Shown piece after piece: positions 36,001 through 39,000 of a stretch of DNA of 64,000 nucleotides. Within the stretch, counting starts at the first letter, position 1. Each line of letters opens with the position of its first letter. A program made the position numbers. Source of the DNA: Escherichia coli (lineage in GTDB: Bacteria > Pseudomonadota > Gammaproteobacteria > Enterobacterales > Enterobacteriaceae); NCBI RefSeq assembly GCF_017348835.2, contig NZ_CP071375.1. One strand, given 5' to 3'.

Positions 36001-39000
36001 TTCCAGCGTTGCCGCCAGCCCCGGATCTTTTGCGCGGGCGGTTTCCAGCACATGGCGGTAATGCTCCGGCGTGATGGCCCGCTTCGTACCGTTACGGGAT
36101 GCGCCAGACAGGCCCAGCGAGCGGTTATTCAGTCGCTCACTCTGCGCCAGCCTGTCACGCCCGGCCTGTTTCAGAATGCAGCGCACCGCCGCCATCTCAT
36201 TTTGCAGGGAACGCTTCGTGATACCCTGCGCCAGTCGTTCACGAACATATCCCTCAATATACCGCGCCTTAAGCTGCTCCACCCGGCGGATCTGCACATT
36301 CTGTGCCAGAACCAGACGCTCACAAAACCGCTGCACCAGCTTAATACGGTCGTGAACGGTCTTATGGCTGCCGCCCGCCTGCTGTGCCAGTCGCTTCATT
36401 TCCTGCTCCAGAATCCCCATACATTCCCCCTTTCATGATTGCCGCAAACTCATCCCCAAAAACTCAACACTGATACAGCGTTCCCCGGCGCACAGGCCGA
36501 TAGCCCCTGAGTTTTGTCGGGGCTGCGAACGATACCTGAGCGCCGGGGCGGCAGCCGTTGAGGTGTGGTGGGGCTTCGGTTGTGCTCTCAGAGCAGCCGC
36601 CCGCTTGCGCGGGTCATCCCCCGGATCGTCCAGATCCGCCTCGGTATCGGTTCATGTTCTCCTTATGGGTAAATGGCCTGAAAAGGCGGTGTCAGAATCC
36701 AGCCATGAGCTGGCGCAGTTGAGTTTTCTGGTGCAGGTCGAAAGGGCTTGCGTGCGTCACTTTCCCGCTTTGCGCGGTTAAAGTGACGCACGGATCTGGT
36801 GCAGCATCTGAGATTTATCGTCTGGTGCAGTTTTACGGTCACGCGGCAGCAAAGCCTGACGGCAATGCAGGCCGCAGCCCGTAAGGTAAAAGGCGCTGAG
36901 GGTGTCAGCAGATGCAGGTTAGCCGGGAGAATTCCGGCGCGGTGCAGATTCAGACCAGCAGGCTGGCGAAGTAAAAGGATGTATCGTATTAAAACTCTGG
37001 CCTCCGTCGCGATGTTCTGCGACCCGGTGTTTGCAGAGGTCTGCACCGGTAAACGGATCGACCGTCCTGATAACAGGCGCTTCTTTCAGGTTGTGAAGCG
37101 TTGGGCGCTGTCTACGACAGCATAGAGCAAGGGGGAGACTACGCCTGTGCCGCTGGCGCGGAAAGGAGAAACTGTTTTTACCTGCAAAAGGATTTTTTAA
37201 TCACTTGTTGTTATAAAAAATGAGGGCGCTGTATGTGACAGCGCCCTCGTTCAGGTTACATAAAAAATATCAGCTCAGAATAGCTTCCAGTCGAGCCAGC
37301 ACCTCATTCACGACAGCATCGGGTATACGTTCCAGCCGCTTACCGCTCCGAGCTCCCATATCAATGGTTCTGGGCTGGTCGCAGCGAATAACGCCCGTTG
37401 TTTTTGTTCCCGCCCCGTCCAGTGAAACGGTAAAACCGGCTTCGCGGGCAAAGTTTCCGCCGCTGGTGACAGGGACAACAACAGGCAACCGGGTGAACGT
37501 GTTAAACGATGCCTTCGATACGATGAGTACCGGACGTTTTCCACTTTGTTCATGGCCAGTGGTGGGATCCAGTGAAACGAGCCAGATTTCTCCTCTGTCC
37601 ATCTACAGGATCTCCTTGCCCACCGCAGGCGCATCAATCCATTCCCGACCCTCTTCGCTTATTTCAGCGTGCGGATCGCACTGCGCCAACAGTTCTTCGA
37701 GCGAATAGCGGGGACGTTTTTGAGGTTCAATAATCAGGCAGCCATCATCAATGGTCATGCCCACTTCGCTGTCCGTCGACAGCCCTAGCGTTTTCAGCAC
37801 GGCGGGGGGAACCGCCAGCATGACGGATCCGCCAACCTTTTTCAGGCGAGTGGTATACATAGAGCACCTCCAGATATTATATTTTAATATAACATCTACG
37901 GCAGACGATGCACAACTATTCATCAGGTTCATTGTGGTTTCCTTAGTGTAATAAAGCGTGAAGAAAGCCTTAATCCATCGGAAGACAGATCCGGCAGTTT
38001 TCAAAGGCGACATTGCCGGTAAAAGGGCAACCGTCCTGATACATCAGGCGCTTCTTTCAGGTCATGAAGCATTTCGTACAGGCGGGAGCTTAGTGCGTAA
38101 CAAAGAAGGCCGATAATAGGAAACTGCTTTTGCAGTTCAAAGGATTATGACGGTTCGGATAAACAAAATGCGGCGCAGCTTCCGTATCCGGGCTGCGCCG
38201 CAGGAACATCAGCGGTAGCGCGAAGGCCAGATTTGCTCAGGCTTGAAGCCTAACGCTTCGGCAATTAACCTTTCGCCTTTGGGCCAGCGGCGGGTAAGCG
38301 CATTAGCCAGCGTGGAGGACGCCAGACCTGCCTGACGCGAAAGCGCTGACAGCGAAGTGCCTCGTTTTTTCAGCCCGGCGATAATGTCGGCAGGATGCCA
38401 GTCCTGCAGCATCATGCAGCCACCTCGTCGATAAACTTCACGCCGTCGGCGGTGCGGAGCCAGCGCGGGGCTTTCATTTCGGCGGCAAAATACCAGACCA
38501 GTTCACATAATAAGCCTGTTATCGTCTGCTCCACTTTTGGCTGCATCCCCTGCCCGATAAGAAGTTGCGCCAGCGTCAGTGAGTAATCACAAAGTAATTC
38601 TGCGTCGGGGACAAATCGGGGCATATCGGCAGGTAGAGCATCAACGGTCAGGCTGTCAGTCAGATGAGACGGGATGGGGTCGTTCAGCGTGGGTTGCAGC
38701 AAAGTGAGACAGGCGGCAAGTCGCCCGCAAAGCGCCAGCCGCAGCACCGGATCTTCGCTTTCGATCAGGGTTTCGGCGACGTTTTCGCAGTGGTCTGCCA
38801 GTACGGTAAAATCTGTGGCAGCACTGAAGGGAACAGCAAGTAACGGGTGTGTCTGAGTGGGGATCGTAGCCATAAAGGCAGCCTCCAGTATGTGGTTTGA
38901 AAACCACCACCAGAGGTTCCAATCTCATGGGTGGTGGACTGAACGAGGTTGGAACTACCGGCCATACTGGAACCGGCGCACCTTACGGTGCCCCCGCCCA

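What the first reader, a model, noticed from the sequence alone, without database searches (positions are those of the whole stretch)
38209..38873. Ner-like regulator translationally coupled to an unassigned 153-aa GC-rich ORF
A Ner/Nlp-family HTH protein overlaps by 4 bp the end of an unknown 153-aa gene, lying between the AT-rich nuclease-like operon and PemIK. Its GC content differs sharply from the adjacent AT-rich operon, suggesting separate acquisition; it could regulate neighbouring cargo.
Basis: partly seen in the sequence, partly recalled or inferred. Interest (0 to 1): 0.25.

Follow-up and report, generated by a model that had tools for sequence, protein, structure and literature searches.

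The report
RNA-gated Ner operon on defence island

Summary
A 68-aa Ner-type HTH gene (38209-38415, minus strand) overlaps a 153-aa gene (38412-38873) by ATGA. Both are conserved and under purifying selection.

They hold a complete phage P4 CI / P1 c4-type antisense-RNA immunity cassette:
- a promoter;
- a seqA/IsrK-like leader carrying targets a1 and b1;
- a terminator;
- an 87-nt C4-like RNA;
- a second target pair, a2 and b2, with b2 running into the Shine-Dalgarno of the 153-aa gene.

Across 38 loci the RNA loops and all four targets change together (99.6-99.8% paired, 11-13 of 15 pairs compensatory). The pair is therefore best read as the RNA-gated, translationally coupled output of this switch.

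The module belongs to the conserved backbone of roughly 13-kb P4-integrase islands at tRNA-Asn or tRNA-Phe in about 35 enterobacterial genera. The AT-rich HEPN/NACHT operon is interchangeable defence cargo and is not a fixed partner.

The Ner protein is about two-thirds identical to Mu Ner in the printed alignment. The 153-aa protein is an acidic four-helix bundle with no known relative. What the two proteins do once expressed is unknown.

Verdict: a new variant of a known kind, of moderate interest.

The parts
39125..39153 (-). Putative constitutive promoter, the positional equivalent of P4 P_LE. The -35 is TTGCCG (39153-39148), the spacer is 17 nt, and the -10 is TATCTT (39130-39125).
   Evidence: Both hexamers are conserved at the same spacing in nearly all loci while the spacer varies. 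P4 has TTGCCT-17-TATAGT at the same place. The simple consensus scan did not call it, so it is inferred from conservation.
39039..39119 (-). seqA/IsrK-like leader. It holds a 5' hairpin, target a1 (TTGGAAC, 39094-39088) displayed in a hairpin loop, target b1 (CATACTGG, 39074-39067), and an intrinsic terminator (stem 39058-39045 followed by a U run).
   Evidence: Rfam isrK RF01394 scores 72.6 bits (gathering 50) and c4-a1b1 RF03163 scores 48.0 bits (gathering 46.7). The terminator comes from the scan. For a1/b1 against the RNA loops, 99.6% of cells pair, 13 of 15 pairs are compensatory, and 0 of 500 shuffles reach the observed score.
38927..39013 (-). C4 / P4-CI-type antisense RNA of 87 nt. Loop b' is CCAGTATG (38970-38963) and the single-stranded a' is GTTCCAA (38955-38949).
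   Evidence: Rfam C4 RF01695 scores 83.2 bits (gathering 45), with full-length model match. The predicted fold is -48.2 kcal/mol with z = -5.55, and b' lies in a hairpin loop while a' lies in the multiloop.
38882..38937 (-). seqC-like target region. The hairpin CCACCACC/GGTGGTGG (38937-38930 with 38911-38904) displays a2 (TTGGAAC, 38922-38916). b2 (CATACTGG, 38892-38885) runs into the Shine-Dalgarno GGAGG (38886-38882) of the 153-aa gene.
   Evidence: The complementarity was found. For b'/b2 plus a'/a2, 99.8% of 570 cells pair, 11 of 15 pairs are compensatory, the covariation score is 0.569 against 0.190 for shuffles (0 of 500 reach it), and slid controls pair at 44% or less. The hairpin pairs in 99% of cells with 2 compensatory pairs.
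38412..38873 (-). 153-aa gene, called p153 in the rest of this report. It encodes an acidic protein (20 D/E against 8 K/R) that folds as an up-down four-helix bundle with a C-terminal beta hairpin. The family is uncharacterized. Its last codons carry the Shine-Dalgarno (GAGGTGG) for Ner.
38209..38415 (-). Ner-type HTH DNA-binding protein of 68 aa. Its start codon overlaps the p153 stop as ATGA.
   Evidence: Pfam HTH_35 scores 113 bits. PHROG 769, a transcriptional repressor family, matches at 2e-31. Mu Ner 1NEQ matches at 9e-27 and EnrR 7F9H at 9e-23. It falls below the NCBIfam SfsB equivalog cut-off, 105.9 against 150. The ATGA junction is kept in 28 of 31 loci. dN/dS is 0.14.
38161..38201 (-). 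Probable intrinsic terminator that ends the bicistronic operon: GCGGCGCAGC, a 12-nt loop, GCTGCGCCGC, then ATTTTGTTT.
   Evidence: Read directly from the sequence.
37270..37860 (-). PemI/PemK (MazEF-type) toxin-antitoxin cassette in the optional TA slot of the backbone.
   Evidence: Identified by Pfam PemK_toxin and MazE_antitoxin. It is present in about 10 of 51 loci, and other loci carry a RelE/HigB-like toxin plus XRE HTH or nothing in the same slot. It is flanked by a 29-nt direct repeat at 37074-37102 and 38045-38073.
35536..36420 (-). Integrase_1 / Phage_int_SAM_2 protein of 294 aa, the most constant protein neighbour of the pair.
   Evidence: Pfam PF12835 matches at 5e-63 and PF12834 at 8e-36. 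A homologue lies downstream of Ner in about 30 loci.
31196..32497 (+). P4-type tyrosine integrase next to tRNA-Asn (31010-31085), which marks the attL end of the island.
   Evidence: The module travels with two integrase clades, one at tRNA-Asn (88-94% identity) and one at tRNA-Phe (56-58% identity).
39244..43725 (-). Variable cargo slot. In this window it holds a LA2681-type HEPN protein (534 aa) and a 5'-truncated EruA-type NACHT antiphage gene (954 aa).
   Evidence: Pfam HEPN_LA2681 matches at 1e-40. NCBIfam EruA matches profile positions 399-1318 only, at 649.6 bits against a cut-off of 1000. The full-length 1354-aa gene in E. coli MS20657 scores 1127.6 bits.

Best explanation
The 153-aa gene (p153) and the Ner-like gene form a bicistronic, translationally coupled operon. 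This operon is the protein output of a phage-P4-type RNA immunity switch.

The switch lies on the conserved backbone of a family of small (about 13 kb) P4-integrase islands. These islands insert at tRNA-Asn or tRNA-Phe in Enterobacterales and carry interchangeable defence cargo.

Proposed sequence of events:
1. A conserved promoter (39153-39125) transcribes a leader. The leader contains targets a1/b1, an intrinsic terminator, an 87-nt C4/CI-type RNA, and targets a2/b2.
2. The mature RNA pairs through its loops a' and b' with a2 and b2. Because b2 abuts the Shine-Dalgarno of p153, ribosome entry is blocked.
3. Ner starts at an ATGA junction with its Shine-Dalgarno inside the last p153 codons, so it falls silent together with p153.
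4. The C-rich, G-poor start of the untranslated p153 message probably also allows Rho-dependent termination, as described for P4 and P1.
5. The two proteins would therefore be made only when the RNA is absent or outcompeted. That could be on arrival of the island in a naive cell, on read-through from upstream, or on titration by a heterotypic element.

Once made, Ner would act as a Mu-Ner/Cro-type DNA-binding regulator and p153 as an acidic protein-binding accessory factor. By analogy with every characterized cassette of this type, which gates an antirepressor (P1 Ant, P4 epsilon, Gifsy-1 AnrP), their likeliest job is to flip a repressed state. The target could be a helper element or the island's own recombination genes.

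Shown here: the genes, the coupling geometry, the RNA elements, the compensatory covariation, the synteny and the cargo variability.

Inferred: RNA processing, translational block, Rho polarity, the timing of expression, and all downstream protein function.
For: RNA elements. Rfam matches above gathering score lie directly upstream of p153: C4 (83.2 bits), isrK (72.6 bits) and c4-a1b1 (48.0 bits). The same three families mark CI RNA and seqA in phage P4 itself. PMC10111431 states that these profiles detect CI and seqA relatives.

Shared layout with P4. P4 reads TTCACAGG-AGGCTGCC-N3-ATGGCTAC at the start of eta. The window reads CATACTGG-AGGCTGCC-TTT-ATGGCTAC at the start of p153.

Pairing and covariation. 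b' is complementary to b1 and b2 over 8 nt, and a' to a1 and a2 over 7 nt. Thirty-eight loci show 13 b' loop variants, 4 a' variants and 17 combinations. Cognate b'/b2 pairing is 8 of 8 nt in 37 of 38 loci, and a'/a2 pairing is 7 of 7 nt in all 38. Non-cognate means are 4.7 and 5.2 nt. The formal counts are 99.8% and 99.6% of cells paired, 11 and 13 of 15 pairs compensatory, 0 of 500 shuffles reaching the observed score, and slid controls at 44% or less.

RNA fold. b' lies in a hairpin loop and a' in the multiloop, with z = -5.55.

Coupling. The ATGA junction with an internal GAGGTGG is kept in 28 of 31 loci. An AUGA-coupled pair behind IsrK was shown experimentally in Gifsy-1 (PMC4825925).

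Termination signal. The first 60 nt of the p153 ORF are C 39% and G 14%.

Synteny. The order RNA cassette, p153, Ner, optional TA, Integrase_1, int, tRNA holds across about 35 genera. An intact 13.3-kb island is bounded by a 16-nt att repeat in E. coli MS20657.

Coding status. Both genes are under purifying selection.

Homologue context. Distant p153 homologues are the first gene of the early or replication operon of PICI-type satellites.

Ner family. The closest solved relatives are Mu Ner and EnrR.
Against: - No expression data were available. RNA processing, repression and Rho polarity are analogies to P4 and P1, recalled from established knowledge and from PMC4825925 and PMC10111431.
- In Gifsy-1 the IsrK RNA activates rather than represses the downstream genes, so the sign of regulation is not guaranteed.
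- The promoter was not called by the consensus scan.
- p153 has no informative structural or sequence relative.
- A fused p153-linker-Ner AlphaFold model gave no confident complex, with pTM 0.49.
- Mu Ner operator consensus is not enriched in the window, 31 matches against 40 expected.
- The window copy of the island is decayed. No attR repeat of the tRNA-Asn 3' end was found in the window, an IS66 lies between int and Integrase_1, and the cargo is truncated next to an IS3. The module may therefore be idle in this strain.
- Distant p153 homologues in PICI-type elements lack a C4/isrK match at gathering score.
Confidence: 0.7

Rival explanations
1. The Ner-like protein, with or without p153, is the island's recombination directionality factor or a regulator of excision. 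It would act on the P4-type integrase or on the adjacent Integrase_1 protein. The RNA switch would then make excision conditional.
For: - The backbone has no AlpA/Vis/Xis-type gene. P4 Vis found no homologue in any of the 53 loci, and the annotations show none.
- The pair is always linked to Integrase_1 and int.
- Ner is a small HTH protein, like many directionality factors.
Against: - To my knowledge, no Ner-family protein is known to be a directionality factor.
- The same Ner (about 80-90% identical) travels with two integrase clades that are only 56-58% identical and use different tRNA sites. That is unusual for a cognate directionality factor.
- No att-proximal Ner sites were found.
Confidence: 0.2
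2. The pair is a stand-alone Ner-like regulator that controls the neighbouring AT-rich cargo operon, for example by silencing or counter-silencing it as EnrR does.
For: - The Ner gene is adjacent to AT-rich cargo.
- EnrR, a genomic-island-encoded Ner-like protein, binds AT-rich palindromes, competes with H-NS and represses AT-rich island genes (PMC9023278; 7F9H matched at 9e-23).
Against: - The cargo differs between islands that carry near-identical Ner/p153 genes, and it can lie on the opposite strand.
- HEPN+NACHT accompanies the pair in only 2 of 53 loci.
- Ner here lacks the N-terminal extension that EnrR uses for minor-groove contacts (68 aa against 90 aa).
- EnrR-type genes sit in a different island module with no p153 upstream.
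- The only regulatory link that could be demonstrated is to the upstream RNA.
Confidence: 0.15
3. The module is an inert relic of a decayed P4-like or PICI-like satellite. The immunity region and first early gene would have been left behind after the replication and hijacking genes were lost, with no present function.
For: - No alpha, epsilon, sid, delta or psu homologues occur in any locus.
- Several loci keep only the RNA cassette and p153, followed by chromosomal genes.
- The window copy is itself IS-ridden and has no attR repeat in the window.
Against: - Both genes are under purifying selection across genera.
- The RNA/target specificity has diversified with strict compensation into 17 combinations.
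- The same compact backbone recurs with fresh cargo and an intact att repeat.
- Co-resident modules in three genomes are heterotypic.
Confidence: 0.1
4. p153 and Ner form a toxin-antitoxin-like addiction pair, with the toxin gene first and the HTH antitoxin second, as in HigBA.
For: - The gene order and the 4-nt overlap resemble reversed type II TA operons.
- The pair sits next to a genuine TA slot.
Against: - p153 is an acidic four-helix bundle with no toxin-like fold or family match.
- About ten loci keep an intact p153 without Ner.
- PADLOC and Pfam gave no hits.
- The fusion model predicts no complex.
Confidence: 0.04

Closest known systems
Phage P4 immunity region (P_LE, seqA, CI RNA, seqC, eta, epsilon, orf151, cnr, alpha)
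   Same: - The order of elements is the same, and the same three Rfam families match in both.
- The context around the first downstream start codon is nearly identical: GGAGGCTGCC-N3-ATGGCTAC.
- The first residues of the downstream protein are alike: MATTLTPSHP in P4 eta and MATIPTQTHP in p153.
- Both lie in an element with a P4-type integrase.
   Different: - Beyond its first ten or so residues, p153 is unrelated to eta and to orf151.
- Ner follows in place of epsilon and alpha.
- There are no replication, capsid-size or late-activator genes.
- The element is therefore not a P4-like satellite.
Phage P1/P7 immI operon (c4 antisense RNA, icd, ant)
   Same: - The antisense RNA is made from the same transcript as its targets.
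- The a'/b' loops pair with a1/b1 upstream and a2/b2 downstream.
- The downstream target covers the ribosome-binding site of a first small gene that is translationally coupled to the effector gene.
- Specificity types differ by compensatory changes, as in P1/P7 heteroimmunity. This comparison rests on established knowledge.
- The Rfam C4 family matches.
   Different: - The effector pair here is p153 plus a Ner-type HTH protein, not Icd and Ant.
- The host element is an integrated island, not a plasmid prophage.
Gifsy-1 isrK-orf45-anrP locus (PMC4825925)
   Same: - An IsrK/seqA-type leader with its own terminator is followed by an AUGA-coupled gene pair.
- Translational coupling in that locus was shown experimentally.
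   Different: - In Gifsy-1 the short IsrK RNA activates translation.
- The downstream gene there is an antirepressor.
- orf45 there is poorly conserved at the protein level, whereas p153 is a conserved folded protein.
Mu Ner, and EnrR of Edwardsiella (PDB 1NEQ, 7F9H; PMC9023278)
   Same: - The 68-aa protein belongs to the same HTH_35 family. I counted about two-thirds identity to Mu Ner over 65 residues in the printed alignment.
- EnrR is also encoded on a genomic island.
   Different: - Mu Ner is the first gene of Mu's early operon.
- EnrR is the first gene of its own operon in a different island type and has an N-terminal extension.
- In this family alone the Ner gene is the distal, coupled gene behind p153 and an antisense-RNA switch.
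Early or replication operon of Gram-negative PICI-type satellites
   Same: - Distant p153 homologues (about 30-35% identity) are the first gene after AlpA or AntA.
- They lie ahead of the primase/helicase in integrase-bearing elements.
   Different: - Those elements carry AlpA, replication genes and in one case capsid genes, and they show no C4/isrK match at gathering score.
- The window family has none of these genes and has Ner instead.

Membership tests
C4 / P4-CI antisense-RNA immunity cassette (Rfam RF01695, RF01394, RF03163) | An antisense RNA with the family's fold that scores above the curated gathering threshold | tested here: met
   C4 scores 83.2 bits against 45, with model positions 1-87 of 87 matched. 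The fold z-score is -5.55.
C4 / P4-CI antisense-RNA immunity cassette (Rfam RF01695, RF01394, RF03163) | An upstream target set (a1/b1, seqA/IsrK) complementary to the RNA loops | tested here: met
   isrK scores 72.6 against 50 and c4-a1b1 scores 48.0 against 46.7. Across loci, 99.6% of cells pair and 13 of 15 pairs are compensatory.
C4 / P4-CI antisense-RNA immunity cassette (Rfam RF01695, RF01394, RF03163) | A downstream target set (a2/b2, seqC) that overlaps the ribosome-binding site of the first downstream gene | tested here: met
   b2 at 38892-38885 overlaps the GGAGG at 38886-38882, and the ATG is at 38873. Across loci, 99.8% of cells pair and 11 of 15 pairs are compensatory.
C4 / P4-CI antisense-RNA immunity cassette (Rfam RF01695, RF01394, RF03163) | The RNA is processed from the operon transcript and represses downstream expression, by translation block and premature termination | not testable with these tools
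   This needs Northern blots or RNA-seq, reporter fusions and Rho inhibition.
Ner/Nlp family (Pfam HTH_35, PF13693) | A sequence match above the Pfam gathering score, and similarity to Mu Ner | tested here: met
   The Pfam score is 113 bits against 25. 1NEQ matches at E=9e-27 over residues 4-68.
Ner/Nlp family (Pfam HTH_35, PF13693) | Orthology to chromosomal SfsB/Nlp (NCBIfam equivalog NF007670) | tested here: not met
   The score is 105.9 bits against a cut-off of 150, and the protein is 68 aa against a 92-position profile. It is a family member but not the SfsB orthologue.
Ner/Nlp family (Pfam HTH_35, PF13693) | Binding to paired Ner-type operators | tested here: inconclusive
   The Mu Ner consensus ANYTARCTAAGT is not enriched, with 31 matches against 40 expected. 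The operator of this protein is unknown.
P4-like satellite | Core genes alpha, epsilon, sid, delta and psu together with the integrase | tested here: not met
   tblastn with every P4 protein found only the integrase, in all 53 loci.
Type II toxin-antitoxin pair (HigBA-like order) | The first gene encodes a toxin of a known fold, and it cannot persist without its antitoxin | tested here: not met
   p153 is a four-helix bundle with no toxin family match. An intact p153 without Ner occurs in about ten loci.
'Ash family protein' (Pfam PF10554), the label some annotations give to N-extended versions of the 153-aa ORF | A genuine protein domain that matches PF10554 | tested here: not met
   The window ORFs over this region do not match. 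PF10554 matches residues 22-85 of P4's obsolete 137-aa 'cI' ORF, which is the translated CI RNA and seqC DNA, and it does not match epsilon, which is PF25738.
EruA-type NACHT antiphage system (neighbouring cargo) | A full-length protein that reaches the NCBIfam equivalog cut-off | tested here: not met
   The window ORF covers profile positions 399-1318 only and scores 649.6 bits against 1000. The intact 1354-aa gene in E. coli MS20657 scores 1127.6 bits.

The most novel reading that the evidence does not exclude
These islands of about 13 kb have no genes for replication, packaging or transfer. They may form an undescribed class of minimal 'hitcher' elements.

Their only regulatory hardware is a P4-type RNA immunity code (4 a' types and 13 b' loop variants among 38 loci). 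The code gates a Mu-Ner/Cro analogue together with the acidic p153 protein.

On release from the RNA, the pair would derepress or induce a resident helper, for example a Mu-like or other prophage. Ectopic expression of the Ner-like EnrR was reported to release a Mu/D108-like phage from E. coli (PMC9023278). Alternatively the pair could switch on the island's own recombinases. Either route would mobilize the defence cargo.

The diversified a'/b' code would act as an inter-island immunity or incompatibility system.
Probability: 0.15. Interest if true: 0.7.

Novelty: new variant of a known kind. Interest (0 to 1): 0.4.

Why it matters
Small integrase-only defence islands are common, yet how they are regulated and mobilized is largely unknown.

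This work identifies the one conserved regulatory module of one such family. It gives exact, testable base-pairing rules, with many natural specificity types. It shows that a P4/P1-type RNA immunity switch has been re-used outside satellites and phages to gate a Ner-type regulator and an uncharacterized protein family.

It also corrects two annotation habits:
- 'Ash family protein' calls at this position are translations of the antisense-RNA gene.
- The AT-rich neighbours are swappable cargo rather than partners of the regulator.

Tried and rejected
- p153 as a homologue of P4 orf151 or eta. hhalign found no relation to orf151. The match to P4's 137-aa 'cI' ORF falls in alignment columns outside the p153 domain, evidently those contributed by the C-terminal extension of one long member (P0254), and not in the p153 domain itself.
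- A p153-Ner complex. An AlphaFold model of a linker fusion with a paired alignment gave pTM 0.49 and pLDDT 70, so there is no confident interface. The result is uninformative rather than negative.
- Ner operators. The Mu Ner consensus is not enriched. A conserved box upstream of the promoter (39189-39164) occurs only once in the window. An inverted repeat in the promoter spacer is not consistently conserved.
- A plasmid or phage origin for the module. The only phage-collection hit is an unverified 1.5-kb contig. The plasmid hit examined is a piece of chromosome and prophage, and several others are chromosome-sized records.
- Membership in the ROD21-like (EARL) or pheV island literature. Those papers, as far as I read them, do not describe this module.
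- EnrR as the same module. EnrR-type genes have a different context.
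Full report
**Observation.** On the minus strand, a 68-aa ORF (38209-38415) and a 153-aa ORF (38412-38873) overlap by ATGA. I call the 153-aa gene and its protein p153 below.

The small protein is a Ner-family HTH protein. It matches Pfam HTH_35 at 113 bits and PHROG 769, a transcriptional repressor family. It matches Mu Ner (PDB 1NEQ) at E=9e-27, and I counted about two-thirds identity over 65 residues in the printed alignment. It matches EnrR (7F9H) at 9e-23. It is below the NCBIfam cut-off for chromosomal SfsB/Nlp.

GC is 0.56-0.58 over the pair and 0.32-0.42 over the neighbouring 534/954-aa operon. PemIK follows downstream.

**The 153-aa gene is real.**
- It has 444 clusters at E<=1e-3 in the 90%-identity collection, nearly all of 153 aa.
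- It has 222 representatives in the exhaustive search of the 50%-identity library.
- Homologues were found in 51 loci from about 35 enterobacterial genera.
- Median dN/dS against the window copy is 0.20, and 0.14 for Ner.
- AlphaFold gives a confident model, with pLDDT 90.8 and pTM 0.82. The fold is an up-down four-helix bundle with a C-terminal beta hairpin.
- The protein is strongly acidic, with 20 D/E against 8 K/R.

No family library and no structure search gave an informative relative.

Rfam finds three matches above gathering score directly upstream of p153 on the same strand:
- C4 antisense RNA at 38927-39013 (83.2 bits);
- isrK at 39039-39119 (72.6 bits);
- c4-a1b1 at 39080-39132 (48.0 bits).

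The same three families mark the CI RNA and seqA of phage P4. PMC10111431 states explicitly that these profiles detect CI and seqA relatives.

The RNA folds with b' (CCAGTATG) in a hairpin loop and a' (GTTCCAA) single-stranded. Both have exact complements upstream, a1 at 39094-39088 and b1 at 39074-39067. Both have exact complements downstream, a2 at 38922-38916 and b2 at 38892-38885.

b2 runs straight into the GGAGG of p153, whose ATG is at 38873. P4 has the same arrangement at the start of its eta gene: TTCACAGG-AGGCTGCC-N3-ATGGCTAC. The first ten residues of eta and p153 are also alike, and the remainder is unrelated.

**Covariation.** In 38 distinct loci there are 13 b' loop variants, 4 a' variants and 17 combinations.
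- Cognate b'/b2 pairing is 8 of 8 nt in 37 of 38 loci, and a'/a2 pairing is 7 of 7 nt in all 38. Non-cognate pairs average 4.7 and 5.2 nt.
- For b'/b2 plus a'/a2 on alignment A3, 99.8% of 570 cells pair and 11 of 15 pairs have changes on both sides. The covariation score is 0.569 against 0.190 for shuffles, with 0 of 500 shuffles reaching it. Slid controls pair at 44% or less.
- For a1/b1, 99.6% of cells pair, 13 of 15 pairs are compensatory, and the score is 0.580.
- A hairpin that displays a2 in its loop is also conserved.

This is the signature of a working antisense system with many specificity types, as in P1/P7 heteroimmunity. In three genomes that hold two modules, the two are heterotypic.

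**Coupling.** Of 31 intact gene pairs, 28 keep the ATGA junction, with GAGGTGG inside the last p153 codons. The three exceptions have a prematurely stopped p153. The first 60 nt of the p153 ORF are C 39% and G 14%, as expected of a Rho-loading region when the message is untranslated. This last point is an inference.

In Gifsy-1, an IsrK leader followed by an AUGA-coupled pair was shown experimentally to depend on translation of the first ORF (PMC4825925).

**Context.** The window is E. coli chromosome, 100% identical to strains PE164 and F2_81. The gene order recurs across genera and is as follows:
1. tRNA-Asn;
2. P4-type integrase;
3. Integrase_1 protein, preceded by EFASI and STAXI motifs;
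4. an optional TA cassette, either PemIK or a RelE/HigB-like toxin with an XRE HTH;
5. Ner;
6. p153;
7. the RNA cassette;
8. the cargo.

The module travels with two integrase clades, one at tRNA-Asn and one at tRNA-Phe. In E. coli MS20657 the island is intact. It is 13.3 kb long and bounded by a 16-nt repeat of the tRNA 3' end.

The cargo varies. MS20657 carries a HEPN protein, a full-length EruA-type NACHT protein (1127.6 bits against a cut-off of 1000) and an AAA-family ATPase gene. Other strains carry GajA-like ATPase fragments or large unknown proteins. The AT-rich operon is therefore exchangeable cargo. Among the 53 loci screened it accompanies the pair only in L001 and L022.

No P4 genes other than the integrase occur in any locus, so this is not a P4-like satellite. 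About ten loci keep the RNA cassette and p153 but lack Ner, and there chromosomal genes follow.

Distant p153 homologues head the early or replication operon of PICI-type elements. The orders seen are int-AlpA-AntA-p153h-...-DUF927 primase, and int-AlpA-p153h-...-AAA_25-capsid. Those elements have no C4/isrK match at gathering score.

**State of this copy.** No attR repeat of the tRNA-Asn 3' end was found in the window. An IS66 separates int from Integrase_1. The NACHT gene lacks its first 398 or so codons and sits next to an IS3. The RNA cassette, p153 and Ner are nevertheless intact.

**Mechanism and rivals.**

Best-supported mechanism (confidence 0.7). The pair is the translationally coupled output of a P4-type RNA immunity switch on the island backbone. 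It is silent while the RNA is present and expressed when the RNA is absent or outcompeted. What the proteins then do is not shown.

Every characterized cassette of this kind gates an antirepressor, which suggests a derepression role. A Ner-like island protein, EnrR, binds AT-rich DNA, and its expression was reported to release a Mu/D108-like phage from E. coli (PMC9023278).

The rival readings and their confidences are:
- control of excision, 0.2;
- regulation of the cargo, 0.15;
- an inert relic, 0.1;
- a toxin-antitoxin pair, 0.04.

The evidence for and against each is given in the Rival explanations section.

**Dead ends.**
- No p153-Ner complex emerged from the fusion model.
- Mu Ner operators are not enriched.
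- The module has no meaningful plasmid or phage home.
- The island literature I read does not describe it.

**Verdict.** The feature is a new variant of a known kind: a known RNA switch and a known HTH family, joined in a new architecture to an uncharacterized protein family on replicon-less defence islands. Interest is 0.4.

Noticed in passing
window 36526-36655 (-) and 36983-37122 (-): An EFASI RNA motif (RF02957, 118.7 bits) and a sub-threshold STAXI-like motif (RF01728, 37.3 bits against 40.5) lie just 5' of the Integrase_1 gene. A non-coding stretch of similar length (about 0.9 kb) separates Ner from Integrase_1 in loci without a TA cassette. Its function is unknown; possibilities include a single-stranded-DNA element or an element that acts during transfer.
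   Followed up: partly
window 40861-43725 (-), IS3 around 43.8-45.0 kb (ALIL pseudoknot 44096-44212): The 954-aa ORF is the C-terminal two-thirds of an EruA-type NACHT antiphage protein (profile positions 399-1318) and sits next to an IS3. The intact 1354-aa gene with the same HEPN partner is in E. coli MS20657. The cargo defence system in this window is probably dead.
   Followed up: yes
P4 locus L054 8329-8521; L002 12689-12985; window 38874-39020: Pfam PF10554 ('Ash protein family') matches the translated P4 CI RNA and seqC DNA, not the epsilon protein, which is PF25738. 'Ash family protein' annotations upstream of p153 are therefore translations of the antisense-RNA gene. A P4-like satellite survey (PMC8628076) used PF10554 as its epsilon marker.
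   Followed up: yes
window 37074-37102 and 38045-38073: A 29-nt direct repeat (90% identical) flanks the PemIK cassette. Other islands carry a RelE/HigB-like toxin with an XRE HTH antitoxin, or nothing, at the same place. This looks like a dedicated TA insertion slot inside a repeated motif.
   Followed up: partly
window 33063-35262 with flanking repeats 32868-33022 and 35320-35445: An IS66 (tnpA/B/C) is inserted between the P4-type integrase and the Integrase_1 gene. Imperfect inverted and direct repeats flank the insertion.
   Followed up: no
window 31010-31085, 54832-54907, 57969-58044, 60376-60451: The window holds four tRNA-Asn genes but only the first carries an island. No attR copy of the tRNA 3' end exists in the window, so this island copy has lost its right end.
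   Followed up: yes
L019 vs L031 (Brenneria salicis); L026 vs L044 (Affinibrenneria salicis); L013 vs L034 (Superficieibacter): Genomes with two copies of the module carry different a'/b' specificity types. This fits an immunity or incompatibility code, but the sample is only three genomes.
   Followed up: partly
protein P0254 (291 aa); L037 (two inverted modules); L025/L026 (tandem islands): Modules can occur in tandem or inverted pairs. One called ORF reads from a p153-like domain through an Ash-like translation into the start of a second p153 copy.
   Followed up: no
window 39164-39189 (-): A box, AACAATCTGCGATCTCTATTCCAC, lies just upstream of the promoter. It is conserved in roughly a third to a half of the loci and marks the edge of the backbone against the cargo. 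It could be a regulator binding site, but it occurs only once in the window.
   Followed up: partly
L055 (OR845919.1, 1472 bp, 'UNVERIFIED_ORG Escherichia phage ECO95 1-6-1'): The only hit in the phage collection for p153 is a low-coverage 1.5-kb contig from a phage preparation. It is more likely carried-over or transduced bacterial DNA than a phage gene.
   Followed up: partly
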